A DNA stretch of 64,000 nt from a bacterium. GTDB lineage: Bacteria; Patescibacteriota; Dojkabacteria; SC72. Under the pieces are notes generated by a model, which had not been told where the DNA came from, did not search any database, and saw nothing but the letters and a program-made list of their open reading frames with translations. Each line of letters begins with the position of its first letter. Positions within the stretch are counted from its first letter, which is position 1. Of the stretch, positions 2,320 through 64,000 are shown one piece after another. The position numbers and the translations under genes were made by a program. The stretch covers positions 5,249 through 69,248 of the forward strand of contig JAIOSB010000021.1 in the NCBI GenBank assembly GCA_021107795.1. Direction: 5' to 3'.

Positions 2320-2338
2320 GATATTTTCTCCTTTTCTG

Positions 2339-18335: not shown

Positions 18336-18791
18336 ATGATACAAGATCGTGTAATAGACCAATACCCTGGGTTTCCAGCTAACGCTGTTTTTGCACAGGC
18401 ACTTTTATTAAAAGATTATACAAAAGAAAAAGGCTTGTCCTTAGAGAAAGGTGTTTTGGCATCAGACTCAGAATATGTCGATTGGAAAAGGGTGCACCTC
18501 TTTCTAGGTGACATTATTTTAGATACATTAGAAGAAGATAGGGAGGAATGGGAATTTTCAAAAATGGAGAGCCACTTTTGGGATATGGAGTCGTATTACA
18601 AGAAATGCGAAGAAGTAGCATTTGAATTCAATGATAATCTTAAGTTAATAAGATTTAAAGAATATTTACTCATAACTATTATTCCAGAAACATCTGACCA
18701 TGAGGAGAAATTAGTTAATCGACTTGGAGAACTTGGTTTGTCTGAAATAATAATGGTAGATGAGCCTACTTTAATGGATGAAACTTACTAA
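18336..18791 (+). CDS. hypothetical acidic protein
   Basis: 151 aa ORF with ATG embedded in a 14-bp perfect palindrome; no recognisable domain. Confidence 0.3.
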   Translation: MIQDRVIDQYPGFPANAVFAQALLLKDYTKEKGLSLEKGVLASDSEYVDWKRVHLFLGDIILDTLEEDREEWEFSKMESHFWDMESYYKKCEEVAFEFNDNLKLIRFKEYLLITIIPETSDHEEKLVNRLGELGLSEIIMVDEPTLMDETY

Positions 18792-30031: not shown

Positions 30032-30055
30032 GGGGGGATATTAACAATTAATATT

Positions 30056-38088: not shown

Positions 38089-38761
38089 CTACACGATCTA
38101 CATAAGGAGAAATTATCTGCTTAATAGCTTCTAACTCTTCCTCTGCAAAGGAATTGCTTCTGTTCAATGAAGGGTCGATAGTCTTACCCTTTCTGAAGTT
38201 CTGTATGTAGTAGTTCTTACACCCCTTAATCATTTCTCCAATACCCTTAGCGTCCTCTATGACATGCAGACCTTTGACATATGTAGTTCTAAATTCATAA
38301 TCCTTTCCACTACCCATTATCATATCAATAGTAGACTTAATCGCTTTAGTATCTATACCATACTCTTTGAAATATTCTTGAGGATATTTAATATCCATTG
38401 CCCAATAGTCGACTATATCTAACCCTACTATCTCTTTAACAATATCATCCAACAATCCATTGGTGTCTAATTTGACCAAAAGACCTAAACTTTTAACTTT
38501 TCTAATGAAGGGGATTAAGTCGGGTTGTAGTGTAGGTTCTCCACCAGTTATCACTAGAGCATCGATTAAGCCTATACGTTTTTTGAGATAACTAAGGACT
38601 GTTGCCTCGGGGGTAATGAGAGCCTTCTTGCAAGGCTCTACTACTAATTCTGGATTATGACAGTACCCACATCTAAGATTGCATCCATATGTAAATATAA
38701 TAGACGCAATCTTACCAGGGTAATCCAGTAATGTATTCTTTTCAAAACCAGCTATCAACAT
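38078..38761 (-). CDS. nrdG: anaerobic ribonucleoside-triphosphate reductase activating protein
   Basis: 227 aa; GCNLRCGYCHNPE radical-SAM motif. Confidence 0.9.
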   Translation of the reverse strand: MLIAGFEKNTLLDYPGKIASIIFTYGCNLRCGYCHNPELVVEPCKKALITPEATVLSYLKKRIGLIDALVITGGEPTLQPDLIPFIRKVKSLGLLVKLDTNGLLDDIVKEIVGLDIVDYWAMDIKYPQEYFKEYGIDTKAIKSTIDMIMGSGKDYEFRTTYVKGLHVIEDAKGIGEMIKGCKNYYIQNFRKGKTIDPSLNRSNSFAEEELEAIKQIISPYVDRVVIR

Positions 38762-38763
38762 TT

Positions 38764-38886
38764 TTAACTAAAGGTTTTCCTATCATGGAATTCAGCAACT
38801 TTGCCGTTGTTCCACTGTCTGATAGGCCTGATATATCCAACGACTCTTGAGTAGACCTCACACCTTTGCCTCTGTACTTTTCTCAT
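38764..38886 (-). CDS. glycyl-radical domain of NrdD encoded as a separate 40-aa ORF, in frame with nrdD across an amber codon
   Basis: Hand translation MRKVQRQRCEVYSRVVGYIRPIRQWNNGKVAEFHDRKTFS contains the class III RNR glycyl-radical signature RVVGY; ATG at 38884-86. Confidence 0.6.
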   Translation of the reverse strand: MRKVQRQRCEVYSRVVGYIRPIRQWNNGKVAEFHDRKTFS

Positions 38887-38913
38887 ACTTTTGGACAGTA
38901 ATAATTTAAATAG

Positions 38914-41004: not shown

Positions 41005-41022
41005 GTAGGCAGTTATATAATT

Positions 41023-41466
41023 TTAATTAATATTTTCTAATTCTTTCTTAAAATCACTTATTGATTCGAAATTCCGGTATACAGAAGCAAATCGCATATA
41101 GGCTAGGGGGTCTTTTGTCTTTAACCAAGTTAATATCAGGTTGCCAATTTGTGTAGATGTAAGTGGTTTAGGGCTCACTGTTACTTGACGTTCTACATCT
41201 TCACAAAACCCATCGATGTCAGAAGTTGGTATTCTTTCGCTATCAACTGCCTTAAGAATCCCCTTCTTGAGCTTCTCTATATCGAAATTTTCTAAAGAGC
41301 CGTCTCGTTTCTCAATACTTATATCAACCTTTTCAATCCTTTCGTATGTTGTATATCTTCTACCACATCTTAGACACTGTCGTCTTCTTCTAGTAGTGCC
41401 TTCTTCGTTGTTGTCTCTTTTGTCTACTACCTTAGAAGTAGCACATCCGCAATATGGACATTTCAT
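41023..41466 (-). CDS. nrdR: transcriptional repressor NrdR
   Basis: MKCPYCG...Zn ribbon CLRCGRR plus ATP-cone. Confidence 0.9.
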   Translation of the reverse strand: MKCPYCGCATSKVVDKRDNNEEGTTRRRRQCLRCGRRYTTYERIEKVDISIEKRDGSLENFDIEKLKKGILKAVDSERIPTSDIDGFCEDVERQVTVSPKPLTSTQIGNLILTWLKTKDPLAYMRFASVYRNFESISDFKKELENIN

Positions 41467-47482: not shown

Positions 47483-48265
47483 ATGAAAAAACAATTTCTT
47501 TACTACGATACCGAAACAACTGATGTGCAGTCTAAGGATCTTATGCAATTAGCATTTCTAACAGACAATCCTAAAATCCAGATGAATATCTTCATTAAAC
47601 CAAAACAAAAGATCTCCTTTGGCGCTATGTCAATTCACCATATTACACCAGAGATGATTGTAGACAAGCAATACTTTGAAAACACAGCGCTGCCATCGGA
47701 AAATATTGATCCAGAGTACAAAGGAGACAATTTGGTAGAATATCTTAAGTTTCTAGCTGAGAAATATGTTTGGATTGCTCATAACTCAGCTTTTGATAAT
47801 GAGGTAATGCAAAAACAAGGCATTGAGATTCCAAGAAGTATTTGTACACTTAAAGTTGCTAGGAATGCTTTAGCAGAAGGGAACTCTGATTTGGAAAGCT
47901 ATAGACTACAATTTTTAAGATACTACCTTGGGCTATATAAAACAGAAAATAAAAAGCATACGACAGTACATGATGCCCTAAGTGATGTGTATTTCCTTAA
48001 AGATCTCTTCAACCACCTTTTAGAAAACACAAAACTTTCTGCCGAACAAATGATTCTCATCTCTAAGCAACCACAAGTGATGAGAACTATACGATTTGGT
48101 AAATATGCAGGAAAGTCATTGGAAGAAGTTGTGCAGATAGATAGGGAATACCTCATATGGGTTTCAGAGAAGATGATGGATAATGATGATCTAAGATGGA
48201 ACGCTAAACGTGTATTAGATATGGGAACACACTCTACTTCTTCTGGGAATCTAACCTGGATTTAA
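47483..48265 (+). CDS. DnaQ-like 3'-5' exonuclease (DEDDh) with DUF3820-like C-terminal domain
   Basis: YYDTETTD, IAHNSAFDNEVM, HDALSDV; C-terminal FGKYAGKSLEEV...YLIWV. Confidence 0.6.
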   Translation: MKKQFLYYDTETTDVQSKDLMQLAFLTDNPKIQMNIFIKPKQKISFGAMSIHHITPEMIVDKQYFENTALPSENIDPEYKGDNLVEYLKFLAEKYVWIAHNSAFDNEVMQKQGIEIPRSICTLKVARNALAEGNSDLESYRLQFLRYYLGLYKTENKKHTTVHDALSDVYFLKDLFNHLLENTKLSAEQMILISKQPQVMRTIRFGKYAGKSLEEVVQIDREYLIWVSEKMMDNDDLRWNAKRVLDMGTHSTSSGNLTWI

Positions 48266-49199
48266 TCTCCTCTCTAAGCATATCTAATGAATCTTCCAAA
48301 TATGTAGACAAAAGAATGGTAGGTTGACCTGTTGCCTTTCTAAACTCCTCTTCCTTGTCCTTTGCTTGTTCAGGAGAAAAAATATCTGACTTAGTCAAGA
48401 CAACTATCTCCTCCATATCATAGAGTGTAGTAGAAATTCTTTTAAATTCTTCACGCATACTTTTGTATCTTTCAACAAGATCTTCGTTTTCTAAGCTAAT
48501 ACAATGTATAAGTAATTGAGAATATTTCGTATGCTTGAGAAATCTAGTACCCACGCCTTTCCCCTCAGAAGTCCCCTCTATTAATCCTGGCAAGTCCATT
48601 AACTTAATATACCCATCCATCACTGCCATTTGTGGCTCAAGAGTAGTAAATTCATAAGAAGCAACTTTGTAGCGGGCCCTAGTCAGAGCATTGATGATGC
48701 TAGACTTCCCAGCATTAGGATAACCAAGCAGAATAGCTTCAGTTTTGAGATTTAATTCCAACCTAATATCCAAATCTTCCCCCTTAGTAGCTCTTTTGCG
48801 AGACAGCTTACCATCCCAACCCTCACCCCTTAATGTGAAATTCCCTAAACCACCTTCTCCTCCTGTTAGAATAGGGAATTCCTGCTTGTCCTCCTCTATA
48901 CTCACAACCTCTTTCCCTGCCATATCATATACCTTGGTAACCAAAGGAACATTTAACCTCAATGGAGCTCCATCCTTACCATGTTTGCAATAGGTATCTC
49001 CTCGATCTCCATTATCTGCTTTGTATGTATGGTTAGAATCAAACTTGGAAAGATCATACACATTTATATTACCAACAATAACTACACTTGCTCCCTTCCC
49101 ACCATCTCCACCATATGCTTTACCACGATTATCAAACGATATTAGCCCCTCTCCACCATCCCCAGATTTAATTTTTATCTTTTTCTCATCTATTAACAT
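48234..49199 (-). CDS. obg: GTPase Obg
   Basis: N-terminal Gly-rich Obg fold (GDGGEG...GGDGGKG), G-domain GYPNAGKSS. Confidence 0.85.
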   Translation of the reverse strand: MLIDEKKIKIKSGDGGEGLISFDNRGKAYGGDGGKGASVVIVGNINVYDLSKFDSNHTYKADNGDRGDTYCKHGKDGAPLRLNVPLVTKVYDMAGKEVVSIEEDKQEFPILTGGEGGLGNFTLRGEGWDGKLSRKRATKGEDLDIRLELNLKTEAILLGYPNAGKSSIINALTRARYKVASYEFTTLEPQMAVMDGYIKLMDLPGLIEGTSEGKGVGTRFLKHTKYSQLLIHCISLENEDLVERYKSMREEFKRISTTLYDMEEIVVLTKSDIFSPEQAKDKEEEFRKATGQPTILLSTYLEDSLDMLREEIKSRLDSQKK

Positions 49200-49285: not shown

Positions 49286-50986
49286 ATGTCTGAATCAAGA
49301 TTAATAATCAAATTTGGAGGAGAATCAGGCCAAGGTATAAACACCTTGGGACAAATTCTAAGTAAATCGATAAAAGAGAGCGGATTTTACAACTTTGCAT
49401 ACAGAGAATACCCCTCATTAATAAAAGGTGGAGTTGCATCATACCAAATAGACATCTCAGATGAACAGATAGCTTCCTCCTCTAGATATTGCAATATCCT
49501 CTCCATCCTCAGCAAAGACGCCATACACGATTACCTTCCCTCTGTTTCGCCAAACGGAGTAGTAATCTACAACAAAGAAGATCTAGAGCTTTCACAAGAG
49601 GAAAACAACTACATCAAAGAAAACAATATTACCCTCATATCACTAGACACTATCAAAATGGCACTAGAGGTCCAAGGGATTGAATTAATGGCCAATATGG
49701 TTCTTCTAGGATTCATCTGGAAGCTCTTAGGCCTTGACACCAAGCCATTAGAAGAAATCGTGAGAGATACATTCAAGGATAAGAATGTAGATTTAGAAGC
49801 AGAGATAAGGTGTGCCATGGTAGGATATAATTCTAACCAGATAAAAAATGATGTTCTTAAACCAATCACATTCAAACCCAAAATGAAGTGGAAAGACTCT
49901 CTTAACATTACGGGGAATGAGGCTGTAGCACTAGGAGCAATATCTGCAGGCTGTAGAGCATTTTACGCATACCCAATGACTCCAGCGACTTCAATATTCA
50001 AATATCTGGGGGATACATATAAAAAAACGGGGATTCTCATCAAACAAGCAGAAAACGAAATAACTGCTGCTCAACTAGTCATGGGGAGTATGAATATGGG
50101 AACTAGAGCAATGACAGCAACCTCAGGAGGAGGATTTGACCTAATGACAGAAACAATATCATGTGCAGGAATATCAGAAACCCCGATGGTAATTGTTCTA
50201 GCCCAAAGAGTAGGTGCAGGTACAGGAGTACCTACATGGACTGGAGCAGGAGATCTTTCACTTGCACTACACGGAGGACACGGAGAATTCCCAAGATGCA
50301 TAATGTCAGTAAGCAACCCTCAGGATGCCTACACCTTAACTCAAGAAGCATTCAATATTGCTGAGACTTACCAAATACCCGTAATACTTCTTACAGACAA
50401 ACAGATCGCGGAATCGATCTTTAATATAAAAGATCTGCCTAAGCCAATTGATATTGAAAGAGGAATTAGTAACGGAGAATATAGATATGAGATAACAGAC
50501 AGCGGGATTTCCCCTAGATGGATACCATCCATTAACAACCCTACATACTTACAAACTAGTGACGAGCATAACATCACTGGCGAAAGTACAGAACAATCCA
50601 ATGATATCGTAGAGATGTCGGACAAGCGCCTAAGGAAAGTAGAAACACTCCGTGAACAAATAAGGGAACCTGAATATTTTGGAAGTAAAAATCCAGACAT
50701 TGTATTTGTAGGATACGGAAGTGCAGGAAATACCGTCGGGGATACCCTCAAAAGACACCCTGATGTAGGATATCTTCACTACCAATACATATACCCTCTT
50801 AAATATGAGAAGATAATTGAGATTGACGGAAAAGGAGCAAGGATCGTACTTATCGAAAATAATCAGACTGGAGATTTTGGTAAACTAATTAAACAAGAAA
50901 GTGGATTTGAAATTACCGAAAGAATACTAAAATATGATGGCAGGCCACTCTTTCTTGAAGATATCTTAAATTTCTTAAACGATTAA
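49286..50986 (+). CDS. 2-oxoacid:ferredoxin oxidoreductase, fused gamma-alpha subunit
   Basis: N-terminal IKFGGESGQGINTLGQIL (gamma domain), then alpha TPP-enzyme N domain ITGNEAVALGAISAGCRAFYAYPMTPATSI. Confidence 0.75.
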   Translation: MSESRLIIKFGGESGQGINTLGQILSKSIKESGFYNFAYREYPSLIKGGVASYQIDISDEQIASSSRYCNILSILSKDAIHDYLPSVSPNGVVIYNKEDLELSQEENNYIKENNITLISLDTIKMALEVQGIELMANMVLLGFIWKLLGLDTKPLEEIVRDTFKDKNVDLEAEIRCAMVGYNSNQIKNDVLKPITFKPKMKWKDSLNITGNEAVALGAISAGCRAFYAYPMTPATSIFKYLGDTYKKTGILIKQAENEITAAQLVMGSMNMGTRAMTATSGGGFDLMTETISCAGISETPMVIVLAQRVGAGTGVPTWTGAGDLSLALHGGHGEFPRCIMSVSNPQDAYTLTQEAFNIAETYQIPVILLTDKQIAESIFNIKDLPKPIDIERGISNGEYRYEITDSGISPRWIPSINNPTYLQTSDEHNITGESTEQSNDIVEMSDKRLRKVETLREQIREPEYFGSKNPDIVFVGYGSAGNTVGDTLKRHPDVGYLHYQYIYPLKYEKIIEIDGKGARIVLIENNQTGDFGKLIKQESGFEITERILKYDGRPLFLEDILNFLND

Positions 50987-50988
50987 AT

Positions 50989-51843
50989 ATGCCAATACCA
51001 ATCACACAATACAATAATGAAGTGAAACCAACATGGTGTAAAGGTTGTGGTAACTATGCAATTCATATCGCTATCAAAAAAGCACTTGGAGAGCTGGATA
51101 TTGCCCCTAACCAAACACTCATCACCTTTGATATAGGGTGTAGTGGAAATGGAGCAGACAAGATTAATGTAAACGCCTTCAAAGGACTGCATGGAAGATC
51201 TATACCACTAGCCATAGGCTCACACCTTGCAAATAGAAAGATAACGGTACTTGCCACCATTGGAGATGGTGGATGCTTACATGAAGGACTGGACCATCTA
51301 ATACATGCCATTAGAAGTAATTATGACATTACAATACTAATTCACAACAACCAAAACTTCGCACTTACAACAGGGCAAGCAACAGCTACAACACTAGAAG
51401 GGAAGGAAATGTACGGACTCCCAGATGGAAGACCCGAAAGAGAGATTAATATAGGGGAGCTAGTACTAAGCAGTAAACCAAGTTTCTTTGCGAGAGGATA
51501 CTCTGGAGACCCACTGCAGCTTACGGACATATTTAAGGCTGCAATAAAGCACAAAGGATGTAGCGTAGTAGAAATTATGCAAACATGCCCTACATACAAT
51601 AGAGAGTCATCACTAGAATGGTTTACAGAAAGGATAGAGAAGCTTGAAAAACCTCTTCTCACTATTAACGATGCTAGAGATACAGTACTTATGCACGAAA
51701 AGATCAAAACAGGTATAATATATACAGACAACTCAATCCCAACCTTTTACGATAGGTTAGAAAATAGGAAGAATTCGACAACAGAATTAATTGACGAAGT
51801 AAAACAATATGATATATCTAAACTCCTTGAAGATTTTAAATAA
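50989..51843 (+). CDS. 2-oxoacid:ferredoxin oxidoreductase beta subunit (TPP-binding)
   Basis: WCKGCGNY, GDGG TPP motif; start 3 nt after alpha stop. Confidence 0.8.
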   Translation: MPIPITQYNNEVKPTWCKGCGNYAIHIAIKKALGELDIAPNQTLITFDIGCSGNGADKINVNAFKGLHGRSIPLAIGSHLANRKITVLATIGDGGCLHEGLDHLIHAIRSNYDITILIHNNQNFALTTGQATATTLEGKEMYGLPDGRPEREINIGELVLSSKPSFFARGYSGDPLQLTDIFKAAIKHKGCSVVEIMQTCPTYNRESSLEWFTERIEKLEKPLLTINDARDTVLMHEKIKTGIIYTDNSIPTFYDRLENRKNSTTELIDEVKQYDISKLLEDFK

Positions 51844-53948
51844 TGAATGAAAATATCCTGAACCCTAAATCTATTGCCATAGTTGGAGCATCAACCAATC
51901 CAAAGAAGATATCAACCATTATTCTCCAAAACTTAATTGGTGGAGGATATAACGGCAAGGTATACCCAGTAAACCCAAAATATGAAGAAGTTTTGGGTAG
52001 AAAATCATATTCTAACATTCTTGCGATAAAAGAAGATTTAGACCAAGTATGTATCGCCATACCTGCTCACCTAGTAGAAGAGGTAATAGACCAATGTATA
52101 GAAAAGAAAGTCCAGTCTGTCATCATCATCTCTGCAGGTTTTAAAGAAACAGGAGAGGAAGGAATTCTCTTAGAGCAACGAATAGCTACAAAACTTAAGG
52201 ACGCAAAAATCCGATTAATTGGCCCAAACTCCTTAGGGTACATCAACAACAACGAAAACATAAATCTATCCTTTGCTCGCAAGAACACAGGGAAGGGGAA
52301 TATAGCCTTTATTTCCCAATCAGGGGCCTTCTGTACAGCGATTCTAGATATGGCATATGAAGATAACTTCGGATTCTCTAACATAATATCAATTGGTAAT
52401 AAGGCAGATATCTTTGAAAACGAATTGATAGAGATGTTTCAAAATGATAGTAATACCACTGCAATAGCACTTTACATTGAAGAATTTTCAGATGGAAAAG
52501 AATTTGTAAAACTAGCACAACAATCAAAGAAACCTATCATTGTAATTGCACCTGGAAGCTCCGAGAAAGCAAAAGAAGCAATATCCTCTCATACAGGATC
52601 TTTGGCTAGTTCATATGAGACTACTTCGACAGCGATTAGCAAAGGAAATACTATTCTTGCTGAAAATTCTGTACAACTCTACAACCTTATGAAATTAATC
52701 AGCTACAAGAAAATACCTAAAGGGAAAAAGATTGCAGTTGTCTCTAATGCAGGAGGGCCAGGTATCATAGCTACTGACAATATAGAGAAGTACGGACTTA
52801 CCCTATCTGAACTCGGGGAGAAGACAACCAAGAAATTACTAAATGCACTTCCATCGGCCTCCAGTATGCGCAACCCTGTCGATATTTTAGGAGACGCATT
52901 GTCCGATCGATATGAGCAAGCAATTTCTGTTTGTGAGAATGATAAGGAAGTAGATTGTATTTTGGTAATCCTTACACCTCAACTCATTACCGATATCATT
53001 GGGACTGCTGAGAAGATTGTTAAGATACAGAACAAGACATCTAAACCCATTTTTGCATGCTTTTTAGGTAAACACGATATCAAGAGTGGAGTAAATCTAC
53101 TAAATGAGTACAATATATATAGCTCTAGCAATATAGAAGCTACAATAAGAATAATTAGCAAATTGGTCAAATACAATAGTGATAGTGTAAATAAGGATAT
53201 AGTAGAGGTTAAAGATATTAAAACATCTTCAAAATATATAACGGATATAAAGGATTCCCTATCATCCGAAACCATTATCCTCCCTGATGATATTACAGAA
53301 AACATTCTTAAGGAGCACAATATTGCAATACCAGAACAAATCATAACTCCTCATATTGAAAATGCAATTGAATTTGCAGTGAACAGGTTTCCGGTAGTGA
53401 TTAAAGCAACCTCGAAAGATCTTGCACATAAAACTGATGTAAAAGCGGTCTATGTAGATATTAGAACAATCTCAGAGTTTGAATCAAAGTTCTATGAGCT
53501 AAGAGAGGTCATCTCTAAAGTAACAGGTACTACCTCTCCAGAGATTTTAGTACAAGAAATGGTAGAGAGCAATTCAGAGATTTTTATTGGAGCCAATAGG
53601 GAAGGAGATAGTCGAATATATGAAGATGATGGGAAAGGGTTTGGTCACCTCTTAGCAATTGGACAGGGAGGTATATACACAGAGGTTTACAAGGATATAG
53701 AGCATGTATTACTTCCTACAAGTAGAGAAGATATCTTGGAAGCAGTTAATAGAACTAGGCTGTCAAAAATAATTGATGGGTATAGGGGAAGACCTCTATT
53801 AGCTAAAGAGAAGCTCTTGGATATGATGGAAAGTATTCAGAGATTGCTAATATCGTACCCACAGATAATTAGTATGGATATCAACCCTGTAATGCTTACA
53901 GAGGAGAAGGTCGTAGCAGTAGACACTAAAATATATATCAAAGACTAG
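51843..53948 (+). CDS. acetyl-CoA synthetase (ADP-forming), fused alpha-beta
   Basis: CoA-binding IAIVGASTNPKKIS...VYPVNPKYEEVLG; succinyl-CoA-synthetase-like and ATP-grasp domains; start overlaps upstream stop (TAATG). Confidence 0.75.
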   Translation: MNENILNPKSIAIVGASTNPKKISTIILQNLIGGGYNGKVYPVNPKYEEVLGRKSYSNILAIKEDLDQVCIAIPAHLVEEVIDQCIEKKVQSVIIISAGFKETGEEGILLEQRIATKLKDAKIRLIGPNSLGYINNNENINLSFARKNTGKGNIAFISQSGAFCTAILDMAYEDNFGFSNIISIGNKADIFENELIEMFQNDSNTTAIALYIEEFSDGKEFVKLAQQSKKPIIVIAPGSSEKAKEAISSHTGSLASSYETTSTAISKGNTILAENSVQLYNLMKLISYKKIPKGKKIAVVSNAGGPGIIATDNIEKYGLTLSELGEKTTKKLLNALPSASSMRNPVDILGDALSDRYEQAISVCENDKEVDCILVILTPQLITDIIGTAEKIVKIQNKTSKPIFACFLGKHDIKSGVNLLNEYNIYSSSNIEATIRIISKLVKYNSDSVNKDIVEVKDIKTSSKYITDIKDSLSSETIILPDDITENILKEHNIAIPEQIITPHIENAIEFAVNRFPVVIKATSKDLAHKTDVKAVYVDIRTISEFESKFYELREVISKVTGTTSPEILVQEMVESNSEIFIGANREGDSRIYEDDGKGFGHLLAIGQGGIYTEVYKDIEHVLLPTSREDILEAVNRTRLSKIIDGYRGRPLLAKEKLLDMMESIQRLLISYPQIISMDINPVMLTEEKVVAVDTKIYIKD

Positions 53949-58283: not shown

Positions 58284-59942
58284 TTAATGACATTCCTTAC
58301 TACACGCCTCTACAAAACCCATGAACAGTGGGTGAGGTGCTAAGAATCTACTCTTTAATTCTGGATGGTACTGAGTAGCTACAAAGAAAGGATGAACGCT
58401 CTTAGGAAGCTCTATAGCCTCTACTAATGTACCATCTGGACTCTGACCACTAACTACAACACCAGCACTCACCAATCTTTCTCTATACTCATTATTAACC
58501 TCATACCTATGCCTATGCCTTTCCTGCACAAGTGGTAAAGCATCAAACAACTCATTCTTGTACTTTGTGTATAACTCTTCTAATATCGAGCCCTTCTTAA
58601 CAATACAAGGCCATGCTCCAAGACGTATAGTGCCCCCATACTTCTTGTTCTCAATATTCTCTTTCTGATCATCCATTAAATGGATAACGGGATGTACAGT
58701 ATCAGAATCAACTTCTTGAGAATTAGCATCTTTAAGATCTAACATATTCCTTGCGAATTCAATTACTGCCATCTGCATACCGTAACACAAACCAAGAAAT
58801 GGAATTTTTTCTTCTCGTAATATCTTAATACAATCTATTTTACCCTCAGCCCCTCTAGAGCCCCATCCCTGTGGGACTATCACACCATCCATACTCTTTA
58901 ACTCCTCCCTCACACTCTCATCATCTAAGCTATCTGCTACAAACCACTTAATATTTGCCCTATACCCCTGCTCCCAACAAGCGTGATCAATTGCCTCAAG
59001 AACAGAAACATAAGAGTCCTTTAGATCAAACTTCCCACTCTTGAAATATTTACCTACAATAGCGATATTAAGATCTTTTTCGATAGAGTGGATCTTTTCT
59101 ACCTTCTTAGTCCACTGCTCAAGTAATTTTGTACGTTTTGTTTTCAAGTTCAACATATCTACAATCTTCTTACCAAAATTGTAACCGCTGTAGCTTACAG
59201 GGACATCGTAGATATATTCGACGTCAGGTGCAGGCACTATATTTTCTTTAGGTACTAGACAGTAAGTACTTAGTTTCTCAATCCTAACGTCATCAATTTG
59301 GGAATGTGCCCTTGCGATAAGGAAATCAGGAAGTATTCCATGCGAATTAAGAAGTTGAGTAGATATTTGTACTGGCTTACTCTTCATTTCTCCCAAAGTA
59401 GAAGGGAGGGGGAGATAGGAGAGATGAACATGGATTACATCATCACCCAATCGTGCTTTCATGATTTTGTTAGCCTCTAGGAATAAAGCGTTACCAACCT
59501 CTCCAACTGTACCACCAATCTCGACAATGGTGACATCCGCTTCCTGTTCGTCTGCCACATTCGTAATCCAAGTAACTATCTCATCTGGGACATGGTAGTC
59601 CAAACTTACCCATTTCCCATCATATGCAAGAGATCTTTCATCTTTGATAACCTTTTCGAGTACAGCACCACATGTCATAGAGTTCGGACGAGAGAATGTT
59701 TGATTAAGGAATCTCTCATAAGTACCAATATCCATATCAGTCTCAAATCCGTCTTCTAATACAAACGTCTCCCCATGCTCTAGAGGATTCATAGTACCAG
59801 CATCGACATTGAGGTATGGGTCGGCCTTTATGATTGTCACTTTTAAACCTTGCGCTTTAAGAAGGAAGGCTATAGAGGAAGATGTTATACCCTTGCCAAT
59901 TCCTGAAATTACACCACCAGACACAAAGATATATTTAGACAT
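58284..59942 (-). CDS. pyrG: CTP synthase
   Basis: MSKYIFVSGGVISGIGKGI...; GATase GLCYGMQ. Confidence 0.95.
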   Translation of the reverse strand: MSKYIFVSGGVISGIGKGITSSSIAFLLKAQGLKVTIIKADPYLNVDAGTMNPLEHGETFVLEDGFETDMDIGTYERFLNQTFSRPNSMTCGAVLEKVIKDERSLAYDGKWVSLDYHVPDEIVTWITNVADEQEADVTIVEIGGTVGEVGNALFLEANKIMKARLGDDVIHVHLSYLPLPSTLGEMKSKPVQISTQLLNSHGILPDFLIARAHSQIDDVRIEKLSTYCLVPKENIVPAPDVEYIYDVPVSYSGYNFGKKIVDMLNLKTKRTKLLEQWTKKVEKIHSIEKDLNIAIVGKYFKSGKFDLKDSYVSVLEAIDHACWEQGYRANIKWFVADSLDDESVREELKSMDGVIVPQGWGSRGAEGKIDCIKILREEKIPFLGLCYGMQMAVIEFARNMLDLKDANSQEVDSDTVHPVIHLMDDQKENIENKKYGGTIRLGAWPCIVKKGSILEELYTKYKNELFDALPLVQERHRHRYEVNNEYRERLVSAGVVVSGQSPDGTLVEAIELPKSVHPFFVATQYHPELKSRFLAPHPLFMGFVEACSKECH

Positions 59943-59972: not shown

Positions 59973-60839
59973 CTACTCGAACTTTCTCTTAAAATCAATA
60001 CCCTTTACATGCAACTTCTTCCCTGATCTACCTAAATCTTTTTCATATCTTTGTGCATAGTCTCTGTATTTAAATATCCTCTTCTTTCTTTGTTTTACTG
60101 GAAAATGTCCTGCCATACCAATTCCACCTATACACCCACCATCACAAGTAAGTAAATCTAAAAACTTGTAGTGTTTGTACCAACCATCTTTGAACCCATC
60201 GAATATTTTAGTTACCTCTTTCATATCATCCCCAATTAAAATATCCTTCTTCTTTAAAATCTTGTTGGAGTGTAAGGTAGCAGAGAGCCCTCCTGATACT
60301 GGATAGATCTTGGTGTAATCATTGTAGAACTTATCAAACGTCTTTAAATACTTCCTGGCAGTAATCTTCTCTGGGATTTTGTAATCAGTAAAGAGTTGGT
60401 CTAGTTCCTTGTAGGTAAGTGCACTGTCAATGCCTCCTAGCTCTTGTGCCTCAATCTTTTTTGTAAGACAGGGTCCAATGAAGACTTGTTTGTACTTGGG
60501 ATATATCTTTTTACATATGAATGACATACAGCCCATTGGGGAGTGTGCAGGCATTAGATTTCTAATAAGGTGTGGATATTTAACCCTGATTAGGTTTACA
60601 AGGGTAGGGCATGGAGATGCTATCCAGGTACGATCTATATCATCTTTGAGTATGGAGTAGTAGGTAAGATTAGTCATTTTAGCTCCAAAGGTAAGTTCTA
60701 CCACCGTATTAAAGCCCAGTGCTCGTATTCTATATATTACTTCAGGGTAGTCGTAGTCTGCTACAAAAGATGGGGCTAGCATACATACCACATCCTTTTT
60801 ACTATTCAAAATCTTTTTACAGGTAGCTAGGTGATCCAT
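59973..60839 (-). CDS. [FeFe]-hydrogenase H-cluster-domain-like protein (minimal, no accessory domains)
   Basis: CMLAPSF...ALGFNTVVELTFGA (H-domain start), IASPCP (L1 variant of TSCCP), IGPCLTKKIEAQ (L2 MPCxxKKFEA), LLTCDGGCIGGIG (L3). Track ORF extends to 60881 with a TTG; ATG at 60837-39 preferred. Confidence 0.5.
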   Translation of the reverse strand: MDHLATCKKILNSKKDVVCMLAPSFVADYDYPEVIYRIRALGFNTVVELTFGAKMTNLTYYSILKDDIDRTWIASPCPTLVNLIRVKYPHLIRNLMPAHSPMGCMSFICKKIYPKYKQVFIGPCLTKKIEAQELGGIDSALTYKELDQLFTDYKIPEKITARKYLKTFDKFYNDYTKIYPVSGGLSATLHSNKILKKKDILIGDDMKEVTKIFDGFKDGWYKHYKFLDLLTCDGGCIGGIGMAGHFPVKQRKKRIFKYRDYAQRYEKDLGRSGKKLHVKGIDFKRKFE

Positions 60840-60886
60840 GTATAAATATATCATTAAATATCTATAAATGACTAGGTACAATATTC

Positions 60887-61420
60887 ATGATACACTGGAG
60901 TATGTTACAAGCTATTGATATACAGAGTAATAGGTTAGTAAATATCTTAAGGAAGGAGTGGGTACAGATTACATTACTGACCTCCCTTTCTATCTTCGCT
61001 CCTATGGTATTAAAATCGCCTCAGCTTCTAGTGGGTAGTGTTGTTAATCTTGTTTTAACATATTCTGTACTTAAGTTAGGGTTTAAGAAGACTCTTCCTT
61101 CTGTACTTCTTCCTTCTTTAGTTGCATTTAGTAGTAGTGTTCTTTTTGGTGGAGCTACTTACTTCTTAATCTATTTCTTTCCTGTGATATTTATAGGTAA
61201 TGCAATATACATATTGTTAATTGAGAATCTTAGGGCTGGTTTTTTAAGTATTGTAGTTGGTAGTGTTTGTAAGGCGTTGTTACTTTTTCTCTTTGCTTAT
61301 ATTTTCGTAAATCATTTCAATTTGCCAAGAATATTTCTTTCGAGTATGGGGTATATGCAGTTAGTAACTGCTATGATTGGTGGATATGTAGGGTATGGGA
61401 TATCTAAGGTAAACATTTAA
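60887..61420 (+). CDS. hypothetical polytopic membrane protein (possible ECF-transporter S-component-like)
   Basis: 177 aa, about 5-6 hydrophobic helices; no motif recognised. Confidence 0.3.
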   Translation: MIHWSMLQAIDIQSNRLVNILRKEWVQITLLTSLSIFAPMVLKSPQLLVGSVVNLVLTYSVLKLGFKKTLPSVLLPSLVAFSSSVLFGGATYFLIYFFPVIFIGNAIYILLIENLRAGFLSIVVGSVCKALLLFLFAYIFVNHFNLPRIFLSSMGYMQLVTAMIGGYVGYGISKVNI

Positions 61421-61504
61421 CCACTTCAAACCTCTATTGACTCCTAAGCGAAGAAAAAGTAAAATCTTACTAGAATGTTACAAATAATTTAATTCATACT
61501 CCAT

Positions 61505-64000
61505 ATGAAAATAAAGAAATCTTTCATTAAATTATCTGCCACTGTTCCTAATGTCTTACTCCTGCTGTCCATATTAACTTCCAGTGTGTTCTTCCCTGCA
61601 ACTGTGATTGCCCAAGAAATAGATCAATTACCTGAAACAGAGGTTGTAGTAGATATACCTCTTGATGAATCAGAGGACATATTAGAAGAGGGTATAGCTA
61701 CAGGACCAGTCGAAGAAGTATTGGGTACTCGAGATGATATAAAGCCTCCTCTAGAAAAAAAGAAGGCCCTTGATCCTTCGCTTGAAGCACCTACAAACCT
61801 AGGATGGAATATAAGGTCTAAATCTTTAAATACTCCTGGAGAAAGACCCGTCGATATAGCATGTGGAGGAACTACAAACGCAGACTACTACACATATGGT
61901 GATGGGAAAATTTCTCACAATTGGGAACTATCTAATGCTCCGGTCAATGCTCTATACCAAAGAGAATGGAAGACCCCTGGTAGTGGAACTTGGACAACTG
62001 ATGGATATGCATACACAAACGATCACACAGACTTCTCCACCTTTGGTAGTTCAGAAGGGACAGAAGGTGAATGGAACACAAGAGTAAGAGCATGGATAGA
62101 TATAGATGGGAATGGTTTACTAGACGAAAGTATTGATGAATATTCTCATTGGAGTAATGATTGTCAAGTTACATATGATAGGACTAGACCAGCAATTACA
62201 TTAGATTTACCATTACAAGATTCTTTACATTCAGGTACTGTAGGTCTTCAAGCTACCGGAACTGAAGAATTAGATTACATTAACTTCTGGTGGAAAGCAG
62301 AAGGAGAAGATTACTCTAATACAGCACCACATAGGAGATATCACTATATTTATGATAATGGAATACAATTTAAGTGGAGCTTAGACACATTACACGCAGA
62401 AATGTGGGGTAATGATGGTACATATCATATGACTGATGGAGATTACTACTTTTATGCAGCCGGTAAAGATGTAGCAGGAAATTGGGCTAGAACAGATGAA
62501 ATAAAGATTATAGTGGATAATACACCACCAGACGCTCCACACCTGATTACTCCCCTAAACAATAGCTTTGTTAATGGTTCTTCATTAACTTCTCAGTGGA
62601 GTCCTATCTCCGATGCAGATTATTACATCTATGAAAGCTACCATGATGCTGGAGCAACAGACTTAAGATATCATAATACATACACTTCCACTTCTAAGAC
62701 TGCTACCAATGTTGCAAATGCAATATTTTGGTGGAGAGTAAAATCTGTTGATGAGGCAGGGAATGAAAGTGATTGGAGTGATTTATGGAAAGTAACTATT
62801 GATAATGATGCTCCAGAAGTAGAAATTACATCACACAACGATGGAGATATTGTAAACGGTTTACAGAAAATTAGCAGTAAGGTTTTTGACGTTAACCTCT
62901 CACACTACTGGTTTGTAATCGAAGACTCTTCTGGAACCACAGTTGCTGGACCAGGACCTGTACACAATGATGGTCCAGTTGTATTACCAACATTCGATTG
63001 GGATACTACAGGAGTAGATGATGGAATATATACAATAAAGTTAGAAGCTAGAGATAAAGCAGGAAACAAAGATCCAAACCAAGCCTCTGTACCAGCCGAT
63101 CCAGGGGTAGAGAATGATTCTGTAGACTGGGTAGAATTAACCGTAGATAATACAGCTCCTGAATCTACTTTTGATCCAAATATTTCAGGTCAAACATTTA
63201 ATTCCCTAATTAAAATATCTGGATATTCGGATGATAAGTTTAGTCATATTGTAGGTGTAAATCTTTACTACAGCCCATCTGGTGAAGATGAATGGGAACT
63301 AATAGATAAAATAGAGAATACAACACACTCTATCACTCCTACATTGTTCAGGTGGTCTTACGCATGGACCCCAACAAAAGATGGAACTTATGATATAAAA
63401 GCATCTGCATATGATGAATTAGGAAATGAAGAAAGTAGTCCAATAATGACAAATATTACATTTGATAGTACAGCACCTAATGTAGGTCCTATAAGGATAG
63501 TAAGAGATTATGCAGGGTTATATATTAATGGTTGGACAGGATTTACTGGTAGTGCAAAAGTTACAGATTCTCTTTCTCTAGTAAATACAAACTCCTGCGA
63601 ATACATGAGAGATGGAACTAACTGGCTTAAGGGAGATTATACACCTTGGAACAGTAGGTGCAATTTCTACATAATGGGGAGACTAGATGATGCAGAAGTA
63701 TTAGATATGAATGTAAGAGTAAGTGATAATGCAGGGAACAGAGGAGAAGGAACGCAAATAGCAAGAACTGCAGATTCACAACTTCCAAGTGTAGACGTCG
63801 ATATTCCTAACCTTTTCTACGGCCCCAAGACATTTGAAGCAAGCTCGACAATACAAGGCTCAGCAAGTGACACAGTAAGCAAAGTTCGATTAGTAAGAGT
63901 ATCATTACAAAGAAGCGACGATGGCAAATATTGGAGAAGAACATGGAATCCTTACTCTAGCTATGCCTGGAGAAAAGGACCTCAACCACGCAACAATGTG
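61505..64000 (+). CDS. large secreted protein with repeated Ig-like/adhesin-type domains (3' end cut by window edge)
   Basis: Hand-translated open frame from ATG 61505 to window end (832 codons, frame spot-checked at six places); signal peptide MKIKKSFIKLSATVPNVLLLLSILTSSVFFPATVIAQE; recurring ...AGN...W...VTIDNTAP... domain starts. Confidence 0.5.
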   Translation, partial: MKIKKSFIKLSATVPNVLLLLSILTSSVFFPATVIAQEIDQLPETEVVVDIPLDESEDILEEGIATGPVEEVLGTRDDIKPPLEKKKALDPSLEAPTNLGWNIRSKSLNTPGERPVDIACGGTTNADYYTYGDGKISHNWELSNAPVNALYQREWKTPGSGTWTTDGYAYTNDHTDFSTFGSSEGTEGEWNTRVRAWIDIDGNGLLDESIDEYSHWSNDCQVTYDRTRPAITLDLPLQDSLHSGTVGLQATGTEELDYINFWWKAEGEDYSNTAPHRRYHYIYDNGIQFKWSLDTLHAEMWGNDGTYHMTDGDYYFYAAGKDVAGNWARTDEIKIIVDNTPPDAPHLITPLNNSFVNGSSLTSQWSPISDADYYIYESYHDAGATDLRYHNTYTSTSKTATNVANAIFWWRVKSVDEAGNESDWSDLWKVTIDNDAPEVEITSHNDGDIVNGLQKISSKVFDVNLSHYWFVIEDSSGTTVAGPGPVHNDGPVVLPTFDWDTTGVDDGIYTIKLEARDKAGNKDPNQASVPADPGVENDSVDWVELTVDNTAPESTFDPNISGQTFNSLIKISGYSDDKFSHIVGVNLYYSPSGEDEWELIDKIENTTHSITPTLFRWSYAWTPTKDGTYDIKASAYDELGNEESSPIMTNITFDSTAPNVGPIRIVRDYAGLYINGWTGFTGSAKVTDSLSLVNTNSCEYMRDGTNWLKGDYTPWNSRCNFYIMGRLDDAEVLDMNVRVSDNAGNRGEGTQIARTADSQLPSVDVDIPNLFYGPKTFEASSTIQGSASDTVSKVRLVRVSLQRSDDGKYWRRTWNPYSSYAWRKGPQPRNNV

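What the first reader, a model, noticed from the sequence alone, without database searches (positions are those of the whole stretch)
59973..60881. Minimal H-cluster-domain-only [FeFe]-hydrogenase-like protein with altered active-site motifs
The protein begins essentially at the H-domain (CMLAPSF...GFNTVVELTFGA). All four Cys that ligate the cubane are retained: L1 C in IASPCP, L2 IGPCLTKKIEAQ, L3 LLTCDGGCIGG. However, L1 is SPCP instead of TSCCP, so it lacks the proton-relay Cys. The Met residues flanking the 2Fe subcluster in L2 and L3 are Gly and Thr. There are no F-cluster/ferredoxin domains and no hydE/F/G in the window. This suggests a sensory or non-catalytic H-domain protein (Narf/HydS-like logic) rather than a standard hydrogenase. 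It lies upstream of pyrG and the mur cluster, an odd context. The start codon is uncertain: the track uses TTG at 60879-81, with in-frame ATGs at 60852-54 and 60837-39.
Basis: partly seen in the sequence, partly recalled or inferred. Interest (0 to 1): 0.55.

Follow-up and report, generated by a model that had tools for sequence, protein, structure and literature searches.

The report
Ultraminimal [FeFe] hydrogenase in a CPR bacterium
This gene encodes a real, strongly conserved 288-residue "bare catalytic domain" [FeFe] hydrogenase of the ultraminimal group E type described in 2024, found here in a tiny-genome Dojkabacteria-like bacterium, where it most likely vents surplus electrons from pyruvate fermentation as hydrogen rather than acting as a hydrogen sensor.

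Summary
Window 59973-60839 (-) encodes a 288-aa protein that is only an [FeFe]-hydrogenase H-domain (Pfam PF02906, E=1.8e-34; AF2 pLDDT 87, TM about 0.75 to CpI). All four cluster cysteines are present. It has Pro in place of the proton-relay Cys299 and Gly in place of Met353. One correction: Met497 aligns with Leu230, not Thr231.

The "sensory or non-catalytic" reading is only partly right. The protein is 41% identical over its full length (E=2e-74) to Fm, the 286-aa group E "ultraminimal" hydrogenase of the archaeon Ca. Forterrea multitransposorum. Fm carries the same kind of substitutions, binds an H-cluster and evolves H2 (Greening et al. 2024).

More than 120 Dojkabacteria-type orthologues of 268-307 aa exist, with invariant H-cluster-pocket residues. 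dN/dS against an 83%-identical orthologue is 0.07. A 2-oxoacid:ferredoxin oxidoreductase and an ADP-forming acetyl-CoA synthetase lie 6-10 kb away, and are adjacent in relatives. This points to ferredoxin-driven fermentative H2 release.

No hydE/F/G is in the window, which is typical for group E hosts.

Group E was defined from archaea only, so this is a bacterial (CPR) member of a known kind. One new detail is an uncharacterised six-helix membrane protein with a weak ECF-S-component-like fold. It sits next to the gene in most of the Dojkabacteria-type loci examined and in three DPANN archaeal loci.

The parts
59973..60839 (-). Gene for the 288-aa (33.3 kDa, pI 9.5) H-domain-only [FeFe] hydrogenase, group E-like; the coordinates include the stop codon and use the ATG at 60837-60839 as start
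   Evidence: ORF. Pfam PF02906. 41% identity, E=2e-74, to Fm. AF2 model and Foldseek matches. Start codon supported. Molecular weight.
60765..60776 (-). Codons for Ala22-Pro23-Ser24-Phe25, equivalent to CpI Ala230-Pro231-Ser232, which line the [2Fe] subsite next to a CN ligand
   Evidence: Ala and Pro are invariant and Ser is near-invariant in 217 aligned sequences. The mapping to CpI numbering is by my own reading of the CpI sequence around the alignment, so it is an inference.
60606..60620 (-). L1 motif Ala74-Ser75-Pro76-Cys77-Pro78. Cys77 is the cubane ligand (CpI Cys300). Pro76 replaces the proton-relay Cys299.
   Evidence: Pro is present at this position in all 123 Dojkabacteria-type sequences.
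60450..60476 (-). L2 motif Gly122-Pro-Cys124-Leu-Thr-Lys127-Lys-Ile-Glu130. The equivalents are Cys355, Lys358 and Glu361, with Gly in place of Met353.
60123..60158 (-). L3 motif Asp228-Leu-Leu230-Thr-Cys232-Asp-Gly-Gly-Cys236-Ile-Gly-Gly239. The equivalents are Cys499 and Cys503, with Leu230 in place of Met497.
60840..60886 (.). 47-bp divergent intergenic region between hyd and the membrane-protein gene. The overlapping promoter-like site TAGTCA-18-(TG)TATATT at 60874-60845 (- strand) ends 6 nt before the ATG.
   Evidence: This is a consensus match only, and the count in the region is not above the shuffled expectation.
60887..61420 (+). Uncharacterised 177-aa all-helical membrane protein. 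It is a recurrent neighbour of the hydrogenase gene and a tentative partner.
   Evidence: No Pfam or NCBIfam hit. It lies within 200 bp of hyd in 10 of 85 fetched loci, including three archaeal ones, and also in L086 and L088. AF2 pLDDT is 81. The best PDB fold matches are ECF S-components RibU, ThiT and FolT, with TMq 0.5-0.6 and E 0.3-2.
49286..51843 (+). 2-oxoacid:ferredoxin oxidoreductase: fused alpha/gamma subunit (49286-50986) and beta subunit (50989-51843). This is the presumed source of the reduced ferredoxin.
   Evidence: Pfam POR, POR_N, TPP_enzyme_C and PFO_beta_C. TIGR03710 scores 521 bits, above its cutoff. The homologous genes are directly upstream of hyd in 9 archaeal loci and 2-7 kb from it in Dojkabacteria-type loci.
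51843..53948 (+). ADP-forming acetyl-CoA synthetase (acetate--CoA ligase), the ATP-yielding end of the fermentation branch
   Evidence: It is syntenic with POR and hyd in L081, L083 and L088.
58284..59942 (-). pyrG (CTP synthase), 30 bp downstream on the same strand with no terminator-like site between. It is probably co-transcribed. It is context, not part of the mechanism.
   Evidence: The hyd-pyrG adjacency recurs in L083, L085 and L088 (separated by one gene in L088) but not in L081.

Best explanation
The gene encodes an ultraminimal, H-domain-only [FeFe] hydrogenase of the group E type in a Dojkabacteria-like CPR bacterium.

What the sequence shows:
- Four cysteines (Cys77, Cys124, Cys232, Cys236) are positioned to bind the [4Fe-4S] part of the H-cluster.
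- Cys236 is equivalent to CpI Cys503, the residue that bridges to the [2Fe] subsite.
- The pocket residues that cradle the [2Fe] subsite and its CN ligands are conserved: Ala22-Pro23-Ser24, Ser100-Pro101, Pro123, Lys127 and Glu130.

What is inferred:
- The basic 33-kDa protein accepts electrons directly at its only cluster from reduced ferredoxin. That ferredoxin would be made by the nearby 2-oxoacid:ferredoxin oxidoreductase.
- It reduces protons to H2. This lets pyruvate be converted to acetyl-CoA, then to acetate plus ATP by the ADP-forming acetyl-CoA synthetase, without any other electron sink.
- The canonical Cys299-Glu279-Ser319-Glu282-Arg286 proton relay is absent, so protons must arrive by another route. 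That route is probably short, because the site is predicted to be solvent-exposed in these stripped-down enzymes.
- The [2Fe] subsite must be made or acquired without nearby hydEFG, as in archaeal group E hosts.
For: Family membership:
- Pfam H-domain match, fold match to solved hydrogenases, and 41% full-length identity to Fm at E=2e-74.
- The L012 ORF in the closed Ca. Forterrea genome is 286 aa and 33.5 kDa. This fits the 33-kDa Fm protein that Greening et al. purified, matured with [2Fe]adt and showed to be H2-evolving.

Selection:
- Cluster and pocket residues are invariant or near-invariant across 217 sequences.
- dN/dS is 0.067.
- There are more than 120 orthologues of 268-307 aa that contain PF02906 only.

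Metabolic link:
- POR and ACD are at 49286-53948.
- Gene order is hyd-pyrG-ACD-POR in L083 and POR-ACD-pyrG-dcd-hyd in L088.
- POR lies directly upstream of hyd in 9 archaeal loci. Greening et al. noted the same association.
- The published metabolic model of the closed WS6 genome ends in pyruvate to acetate plus ATP, and its main text does not mention a hydrogenase.
- The window also carries anaerobe markers NrdD, NrdG and NrdR.
Against: - No activity data exist for any bacterial member, or for any member with Pro at the Cys299 position. Fm has Asn there.
- Pro or Ala at 299, Gly at 353 and Leu at 497 is exactly the pattern of the group C sensory-type relatives.
- The Dojkabacteria clade is well supported (98% NJ bootstrap), but its position next to the Fm clade is not (22%).
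- No ferredoxin gene with a CxxCxxCxxxC motif is in the window.
- No maturase genes are in the window. Whole-genome absence could not be checked.
- POR is 6-10 kb away in this window, not adjacent.
Confidence: 0.6

Rival explanations
1. It is an Fe-S protein that carries only the [4Fe-4S] cluster and never receives a [2Fe] subsite, because the organism has no HydEFG. Its real role would then be something other than H2 chemistry, such as electron transfer, or a Nar1-like role in Fe-S protein biogenesis.
For: No hydE/F/G is in the 64-kb window, and none is listed in the flanks of the Dojkabacteria-type loci L081-L085 and L088. These genomes are 0.6-0.9 Mb with sparse metabolism. Eukaryotic Nar1/NARF proteins show that an H-domain-like fold can persist without H2 chemistry (own knowledge).
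Against: Residues that contact only the [2Fe] subsite and its ligands (equivalents of Lys358, Ala230-Pro231-Ser232, Ser323-Pro324) are invariant or near-invariant across bacteria and archaea. That is hard to explain if the subsite is never present. Fm comes from a closed genome that also lacks maturases, yet it binds [2Fe]adt and is active in vitro (and the passage). There is no N-terminal Cys-rich Nar1-type cluster domain.
Confidence: 0.2
2. It is an H2 sensor or regulatory H-domain. H2 binding at a slow, relay-less H-cluster would be transmitted to a separate partner protein.
For: The active-site substitution pattern is shared with the multi-domain proteins that fuse an H-domain to PAS, histidine-kinase, sigma-54-activator, MCP or GGDEF modules. 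Greening et al. place group E as sister to sensory group C.
Against: It has no signalling or output domain and no N-terminal Fd cluster. No regulator gene is conserved next to it. The characterised group E enzyme is catalytic and biased toward H2 evolution, unlike TmHydS. In DPANN hosts it is often the only hydrogenase, so there is nothing obvious to regulate.
Confidence: 0.1
3. It is a catalytic hydrogenase, but it works in vivo in the uptake direction. It would take H2 from the host or environment to reduce ferredoxin.
For: Fm is bidirectional on an electrode. H2-rich subsurface habitats are typical for these lineages.
Against: Fm is biased toward proton reduction. The neighbourhood contains ferredoxin-reducing enzymes, not ferredoxin-consuming ones. 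No respiratory or CO2-fixing sink is seen in the window.
Confidence: 0.07

Closest known systems
Group E 'ultraminimal' [FeFe] hydrogenase, e.g. Fm of Ca. Forterrea multitransposorum (Greening et al., Cell 2024, PMC11216029)
   Same: Both are about 286-288 aa and about 33 kDa, H-domain only, with a single [4Fe-4S] plus [2Fe] site. They share 41% identity over the full length. Both have a non-Cys residue at position 299, Gly at 353 and Leu at 497, and both lack the proton relay. Both have condensed loops, hosts with tiny genomes, a POR/ACD association, and no nearby maturases.
   Different: The host here is a CPR bacterium, whereas group E was defined from DPANN archaea only. Pro, not Asn, sits at the Cys299 position. 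The Dojkabacteria sequences form their own clade (98% bootstrap) whose exact position is unresolved. In most of the Dojkabacteria-type loci examined the gene is paired with an uncharacterised six-helix membrane protein, which is absent at the Fm locus.
[quoted passage not shown] Thermotoga maritima HydS)
   Same: The H-domain shares 30-38% identity. The L1/L2/L3 substitution pattern is the same (P/A at 299, G at 353, L at 497), and the canonical proton pathway is missing.
   Different: Group C proteins are 480-1035 aa. They carry an N-terminal ferredoxin-like domain, a CGACGY Cys motif, and PAS, kinase, sigma-54, MCP or GGDEF output modules. The window protein has none of these.
Chlamydomonas reinhardtii HydA1 (group A, M1 architecture)
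   Same: It is an H-domain-only enzyme with no accessory clusters, reduced directly by ferredoxin, and functions as a fermentative or photofermentative H2 producer (own knowledge; size).
   Different: It is 457 aa, has canonical TSCCP/MPC/ExMxC motifs with the Cys proton relay, and depends on HydEFG. Identity to the window protein is only weak (PDB hits at E about 1e-4).
Eukaryotic Nar1/NARF (IOP) proteins
   Same: They have an H-domain-like fold with retained cubane cysteines, no HydEFG, and no [2Fe] subsite (own knowledge).
   Different: They carry an extra N-terminal Cys cluster, are eukaryotic, and act in cytosolic Fe-S assembly. The window protein shows no specific similarity to them, and its relatives include a proven hydrogenase.
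ECF-transporter S components (RibU, ThiT, FolT): comparison for the neighbouring membrane protein only
   Same: It is about 170-180 aa with a six-helix bundle. These are the best and almost the only consistent PDB fold matches (TMq 0.5-0.63, Foldseek prob 0.7-0.99).
   Different: E-values are only 0.3-3. There is no sequence-family match. No EcfA/EcfT genes were detected in the window.

Membership tests
[FeFe]-hydrogenase H-domain superfamily (PF02906) | Profile match above the curated threshold covering the whole domain | tested here: met
   119.9 bits against a cutoff of 22.1; profile positions 2-244 of 245.
[FeFe]-hydrogenase H-domain superfamily (PF02906) | Four cysteines that bind the [4Fe-4S] subcluster, one of which bridges to [2Fe] (CpI Cys300, Cys355, Cys499, Cys503) | tested here: met
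   Cys77, Cys124, Cys232 and Cys236 align to them. They are invariant in 217 sequences.
[FeFe]-hydrogenase H-domain superfamily (PF02906) | H-domain fold | tested here: met
   AF2 pLDDT 87, pTM 0.84. Foldseek TMq 0.73-0.77 to CpI, CbA5H and TmHydA at E about 1e-14.
[FeFe]-hydrogenase H-domain superfamily (PF02906) | Binds a complete H-cluster and turns over H2 | not testable with these tools
   Needs expression, [2Fe]adt maturation, FTIR and an activity assay.
Group A (prototypical catalytic) [FeFe] hydrogenases | L1 TSCCP with proton-relay Cys299; L2 MPC with Met353; L3 ExMxC with Met497; Glu279/Ser319/Glu282/Arg286 relay | tested here: not met
   The motifs are ASPCP, GPC and DLLTC. The relay positions are Tyr, Met, Ile and Asp. 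TIGR02512 scores 70 bits against a cutoff of 406.
Group B [FeFe] hydrogenases (TIGR04105) | Full-length match above cutoff, including the N-terminal Fd domains | tested here: not met
   This is the best NCBIfam hit, but it scores 126 bits against a cutoff of 450 and covers only profile positions 216-458 of 462.
Group E ultraminimal [FeFe] hydrogenases (Greening et al. 2024) | About 286 aa on average, H-domain only, no accessory Fe-S or other domains | tested here: met
   288 aa with PF02906 only.
Group E ultraminimal [FeFe] hydrogenases (Greening et al. 2024) | Closer in sequence to characterised group E members than to other groups | tested here: met
   41% identity, E=2e-74, full length, to Fm. 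Identity is 38-49% to 58 DPANN homologues, 30-38% to group C-like H-domains and about 21% to CpI.
Group E ultraminimal [FeFe] hydrogenases (Greening et al. 2024) | Falls inside the group E clade in a phylogeny | tested here: inconclusive
   NJ tree only, with no group A/B/D/F/G references. Support is 98% for the Dojkabacteria clade, 100% for the Fm clade plus CPR Peribacteria/SR1, and only 22% for Dojkabacteria joined to that clade.
Group E ultraminimal [FeFe] hydrogenases (Greening et al. 2024) | Archaeal (DPANN) host, as the group was originally circumscribed | tested here: not met
   The window is bacterial: mur ligases, UvrB, LexA, DNA pol III alpha. The nearest named relatives are candidate division WS6 / Dojkabacteria.
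Group E ultraminimal [FeFe] hydrogenases (Greening et al. 2024) | Host genome lacks HydE/HydF/HydG | tested here: inconclusive
   Absent from the 64-kb window and from the listed flanks of the Dojkabacteria-type loci. Whole genomes could not be scanned.
Group C sensory [FeFe] hydrogenases | H-domain fused to an N-terminal Fd-like cluster and a C-terminal PAS or other signalling domain | tested here: not met
   Single domain of 288 aa.
Nar1/NARF-like proteins | Additional N-terminal Cys cluster; eukaryotic cytosolic Fe-S assembly factor | tested here: not met
   The protein starts 19 residues before the APSF motif, leaving no room for an N-terminal domain. The host is bacterial.
ECF transporter S component (neighbouring gene 60887-61420) | Six-helix S-component fold plus sequence-family membership and EcfA/A'/T partners | tested here: inconclusive
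   Fold resemblance at TMq 0.5-0.63 but E of 0.3 or higher. No Pfam or NCBIfam hit. No ECF ATPase or T genes seen in the window.

The most novel reading that the evidence does not exclude
The six-helix, ECF-S-component-like membrane protein is a functional partner of the hydrogenase. It is paired with the gene in most of the Dojkabacteria-type loci examined and in three DPANN archaeal loci.

One possibility is that it is a scavenging importer or insertion factor for a ready-made [2Fe] precursor, or a building block of it, taken from the host or environment. That would explain how episymbionts without HydEFG obtain an active H-cluster.

A related lead comes from another DPANN subclade, where a TIGR04084 radical-SAM/SPASM gene and a U32 (UbiU/TrhP-like) gene flank the group E gene. 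These could be parts of an alternative maturation route.
Probability: 0.06. Interest if true: 0.85.

Novelty: new member of a known kind. Interest (0 to 1): 0.35.

Why it matters
Group E ultraminimal [FeFe] hydrogenases were described in 2024 as an archaeal (DPANN) invention. This locus and its relatives show that the same roughly 33-kDa enzyme is widespread in CPR bacteria: over 120 Dojkabacteria-type sequences, plus Peribacteria and SR1 sequences that group with the characterised archaeal Fm clade at 100% NJ bootstrap. So the smallest known hydrogenase is shared across the two radiations of ultra-small symbionts, probably by gene transfer between them.

It also supplies the missing electron sink in the published Dojkabacteria model, in which pyruvate goes to acetate plus ATP. 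These enzymes are of practical interest as minimal scaffolds for H2 catalysis.

The open question of how an H-cluster is matured without HydEFG applies here too. The recurrent membrane-protein neighbour gives one concrete candidate to test.

Tried and rejected
Hypotheses considered and rejected:
- Group A or group B hydrogenase. Rejected on motifs and on NCBIfam scores far below cutoff.
- Nar1-like protein. Rejected because there is no N-terminal cluster domain.
- Decaying or pseudogene copy. Rejected because dN/dS is 0.067 and the catalytic residues are invariant.
- TTG 60881 start and the MLAPSF start used by one gene caller (P0001, 269 aa). Both rejected in favour of ATG 60839.
- Radical-SAM genes of the window as HydE/HydG. 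They are a PapB-like RiPP maturase, an Rv2578c-family protein and NrdG.
- Obg as HydF.
- uvrB co-occurrence with hyd in Peribacteria loci. This is ordinary local synteny.
- The source name 'Putative Fe-only hydrogenase, partial' on a homologue of the membrane protein (P0293). This is an annotation slip. The true hydrogenase gene lies one gene away (about 0.5 kb) on the same contig.

Dead ends:
- The supplement of Greening et al., which holds the sequence tables, is not held.
- No Pfam or NCBIfam family matches the membrane protein, even at E<=10.
- No ferredoxin CxxCxxCxxxC motif is in any frame of the window.
- No Rfam features other than 3 tRNAs.
- Literature searches found no description of group E or minimal [FeFe] hydrogenases in CPR bacteria.
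Full report
OBSERVATION

Its product matches the Pfam [FeFe]-hydrogenase large-subunit C-terminal (H-cluster) domain over essentially the whole profile: PF02906, E=1.8e-34, profile positions 2-244 of 245. No other domain is found.

HMMER alignment to Clostridium pasteurianum CpI shows the following, using residue numbers from the ATG at 60839:
- ASPCP aligns with TSCCP. Cys300 is kept as Cys77, and the proton-relay Cys299 is Pro76.
- IGPCLTKKIEA aligns with MPCTSKKFEA. Cys355, Lys358 and Glu361 are kept, and Met353 is Gly122.
- DLLTCDGGC aligns with EVMACHGGC. Cys499 and Cys503 are kept.

One detail needs correcting. Met497 aligns with Leu230, and Thr231 aligns with Ala498, so the L3 'Met' is replaced by Leu, not Thr.

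The other members of the canonical proton pathway are also missing: Glu279 to Tyr, Glu282 to Ile, Arg286 to Asp, Ser319 to Met.

An AlphaFold2 model built on 58 homologues is confident (pLDDT 87.2, pTM 0.84). Its best PDB matches are all [FeFe] hydrogenases, with TMq 0.73-0.77 and E about 1e-14.

START CODON

The ATG at 60837-60839 is the best start, giving a gene of 59973-60839. Three lines support it:
- An 83%-identical orthologue begins with the same MDHL..C.KIL.SKKD.VCMLAPSF sequence.
- The whole family has a conserved N-terminal helix before APSF, and it is modelled at pLDDT 95.
- A promoter-like TAGTCA-18-TGxTATATT element lies at 60874-60845, inside the longer TTG version of the ORF. 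This is weak evidence.

WHAT IT IS RELATED TO

The word-indexed search found 1249 homologues. The best 120 are all 268-307 aa, carry PF02906 only, and are 60-84% identical (one identical, differently started copy aside). Their named sources are candidate division WS6 / Dojkabacteria.

The exhaustive representative search shows two tiers:
- About 25 clusters of short (256-316 aa) H-domain-only proteins at 33-55% identity.
- Then proteins of 480-1035 aa at 30-38% identity. Their sequences have an N-terminal ferredoxin-like domain, the H-domain, a CGACGY motif, and PAS, histidine-kinase, sigma-54, MCP or GGDEF modules. This is the group C sensory architecture.

A scan of one genome per GTDB species returned three Dojkabacteria/Patescibacteria loci at 55-58% identity. 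It also returned dozens of DPANN archaea (Nanoarchaeota, Woesearchaeota, Iainarchaeota) at 38-49%, and other CPR bacteria (Peribacteria, SR1/Absconditabacterales and others).

One hit, L012, is the closed genome of Ca. Forterrea multitransposorum. Its 286-aa, 33.5-kDa ORF fits the 'Fm' enzyme of Greening et al. 2024. That paper defines group E 'ultraminimal' [FeFe] hydrogenases, with an average length of 286 residues, in DPANN archaea and as sister to sensory group C. It shows that Fm binds one [4Fe-4S] cluster, incorporates [2Fe]adt, passes through Hox/HoxH/Hred' states, and catalyses bidirectional H2 turnover biased toward proton reduction.

The window protein is 41% identical to this ORF over its full length (E=2e-74). 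Fm has Asn at position 299, Gly at 353 and Leu at 497. So the substitutions that prompted the 'non-catalytic' reading are compatible with catalysis.

CONSERVATION

I aligned 217 sequences: 120 Dojkabacteria-type, the window protein, 80 GTDB loci, and 16 group C-like proteins. The following are invariant: the four Cys, Ala230-Pro231, Ser323-Pro324 and Pro354. Ser232, Lys358 and Glu361 are near-invariant.

The Cys299 position is variable across lineages: Pro in all 123 Dojkabacteria-type sequences, Val/Asn/Ala/Pro/Thr in archaea, Pro/Ala in group C-like proteins. dN/dS against the orthologue in L081 is 0.067, with dS about 1.5, which is close to saturation. This is a gene under strong purifying selection with an intact [2Fe]-subsite pocket.

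PHYLOGENY

Only a rough phylogeny was possible: NJ on 277 trimmed columns with 100 bootstraps.
- The Dojkabacteria clade is supported at 98%.
- The clade holding Fm plus CPR Peribacteria/SR1 sequences is supported at 100%.
- The union of the two is supported at only 22%.
- The multi-domain group C-like proteins group at 77%.

Two conclusions follow. First, group E-like enzymes are not confined to archaea. Second, the exact position of the Dojkabacteria clade within the short-protein radiation is unresolved. No group A/B/D/F/G references were available to me.

CONTEXT

The window is a typical CPR bacterial stretch at 35-39% GC, with DnaE, UvrB/C, MutL, LexA, Mur ligases, iPGM, and anaerobic NrdD/NrdG/NrdR.

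On the minus strand, hyd is followed after 30 bp by pyrG and then three Mur ligases, tightly packed with no terminator-like site. They are probably one transcription unit.

On the plus strand, 6-10 kb away, lie a two-subunit 2-oxoacid:ferredoxin oxidoreductase (49286-51843; TIGR03710 above cutoff) and an ADP-forming acetyl-CoA synthetase (51843-53948).

This block is syntenic in the Dojkabacteria-type loci fetched by exact-protein look-up:
- L083: TM | hyd | pyrG | ACD | POR.
- L081: TM | hyd | 121-aa ORF | murE ... ACD | POR | obg.
- L088: POR | ACD | pyrG | dcd | hyd | TM | large surface protein.

In nine archaeal loci the POR genes sit directly upstream of hyd. Greening et al. also noted this association.

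The published metabolic model of the first closed WS6 genome ends in PGA to pyruvate to acetate plus ATP, and its main text does not mention a hydrogenase. A ferredoxin-oxidising hydrogenase is the obvious missing electron sink. I found no ferredoxin gene with a classical motif in the window.

MATURASES

No hydE/F/G is in the window.
- The three radical-SAM genes are a PapB-like SPASM maturase (2339-3637), an Rv2578c-family protein (23825-24697) and NrdG (38078-38761).
- The GTPase at 48234-49199 is Obg.
- None is listed in the flanks of L081-L085 or L088.

Greening et al. report that most group E hosts, including the closed Forterrea genome, lack maturases, and they infer an alternative pathway. 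Whole-genome absence in Dojkabacteria could not be tested with the tools here.

INTERPRETATION

The best-supported reading (confidence about 0.6) is a group E-type, ferredoxin-dependent, H2-evolving hydrogenase that re-oxidises OFOR-reduced ferredoxin.

Shown by the data:
- The domain, fold, ligands and conserved pocket.
- The relationship to a characterised active enzyme.
- Purifying selection.
- Linkage to OFOR and ACD.

Inferred, not shown:
- Actual H-cluster loading in vivo.
- The direction of catalysis.
- The identity of the electron donor.
- The proton route.

Rivals:
- A [4Fe-4S]-only protein with another role (0.2).
- H2 uptake (0.07).

SIDE FINDING

The divergently transcribed gene at 60887-61420 encodes a 177-aa helical membrane protein with no Pfam or NCBIfam family.
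- A profile of its 40 homologues finds it within 200 bp of hyd in 10 of 85 fetched loci. These are seven of the eight bacterial (Dojkabacteria-type) loci, and three archaeal loci: L007, L022 and L024.
- Two further homologues looked up independently also lie close to a hyd gene: adjacent in L088, one gene away in L086.
- The AF2 model (pLDDT 81) resembles ECF-transporter S components (RibU, ThiT, FolT; TMq 0.5-0.63). The E-values are non-significant at 0.3-3.
- Greening et al. mention an uncharacterised 4-6-helix 'hyd6TM' protein next to archaeal group A hydrogenases. I could not test whether it is the same family.

Its role is unknown. Possibilities include a membrane anchor, an ordinary vitamin-uptake protein (for example thiamine for OFOR), or a maturation or import factor.

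In another DPANN subclade (L018, L027, L028, L033, L043, L051, L059) a TIGR04084 radical-SAM/SPASM gene lies near the group E gene. In most of these loci a U32/UbiU/TrhP-like gene lies on the other side. The paper does not mention either.

NOVELTY

The kind is known: group E, described in 2024. The bacterial (CPR) distribution, the Pro299 Dojkabacteria clade and the conserved membrane-protein neighbour appear to be undescribed in the literature I could search. I classify it as a new member of a known kind, of moderate interest.

Noticed in passing
window 60887-61420 (+); also L001 9412-9966, L002 9406-9987, L003 9457-10023, L007 9368-10117, L022 8399-8947, L024 1368-1949, L081 9423-9968, L083 9399-9935, L088 6001-6522: An uncharacterised 170-185-aa six-helix membrane protein with no Pfam or NCBIfam family and invariant P39, P45-Q46, G50, N54, P76, K129, M154-G155 and Q158. 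It sits right next to the minimal hydrogenase gene in most of the Dojkabacteria-type loci examined and in three DPANN archaeal loci. The predicted fold weakly resembles ECF S-components. It may be the 'hyd6TM' family mentioned by Greening et al.
   Followed up: partly
L018 2492-5809, L043 8551-12379, L059 7783-12073, L033 1038-3145, L027 2615-6451, L051 83-3438, L028 10001-11988: In one DPANN subclade a TIGR04084 (rSAM_AF0577) radical-SAM/SPASM gene lies near the group E hydrogenase gene: adjacent in four loci, one small ORF away in two, and on the opposite strand in L028. In six of the seven loci a U32-peptidase/UbiU/TrhP-like gene lies on the other side. Both are Fe-S enzymes of unknown role here and could be candidates for the postulated HydEFG-independent maturation route.
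   Followed up: partly
L025, L032, L042, L046, L050, L056-L058, L066, L069, L070, L077 (match coordinates): Minimal hydrogenases from CPR Peribacteria and SR1/Absconditabacterales group with the clade containing the characterised archaeal Fm enzyme at 100% NJ bootstrap. This indicates CPR-DPANN gene exchange and shows that group E is not archaea-only.
   Followed up: partly
window 59976-60107 (residues 245-288 of the hydrogenase): The protein has a basic C-terminal extension: a long helix at 248-268, then a tail with pLDDT below 50. It ends in a motif G(I/L)DFxR(K/E)F that is conserved from Dojkabacteria to DPANN archaea. The motif's function is unknown and it may be a docking element.
   Followed up: no
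window 61493-64000 (+), running off the end: A large secreted protein (more than 836 aa) with a signal peptide and Ig-like/PKD-type repeats lies downstream of the membrane-protein gene. A large Big_13/PKD surface protein is also adjacent to the membrane-protein gene in L081 (2358 aa) and L088 (1010 aa).
   Followed up: partly
window 1163-3637 (-): A PapB-like radical-SAM/SPASM peptide maturase (2339-3637) sits next to a family-less 316-aa protein with an HEFSH (HExxH-type) motif (1163-2113). This may be a small RiPP-type cluster in a CPR genome.
   Followed up: no
window 38078-41466 (-): An NrdG-NrdD-NrdR cluster (anaerobic ribonucleotide reductase with its activase and regulator) is consistent with a strictly anaerobic lifestyle.
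   Followed up: no
window 18766-19989 (-); window 29327-32851: There is a tyrosine recombinase/integrase at 18766-19989. Separately, a sortase (30056-30673) is followed by a 740-aa LTD/DUF11 surface protein (30629-32851).
   Followed up: no
protein P0136 (sequence): A 4122-aa predicted protein in the representative library carries about seven near-identical tandem copies of a group A-type H-domain (FTSCCASW motif), followed by flavodoxin-like repeats and a reductase-like C-terminal region (assigned by eye). It looks like a eukaryotic polyprotein or an assembly artefact, and is unrelated to this window.
   Followed up: no
protein P0293 / locus L086 1919-2382: In GenBank a homologue of the membrane protein is named 'Putative Fe-only hydrogenase, partial' (candidate division WS6 bacterium 34_10). 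The real hydrogenase gene lies one gene away (about 0.5 kb) at L086 524-1396, so the name looks like an annotation slip.
   Followed up: yes
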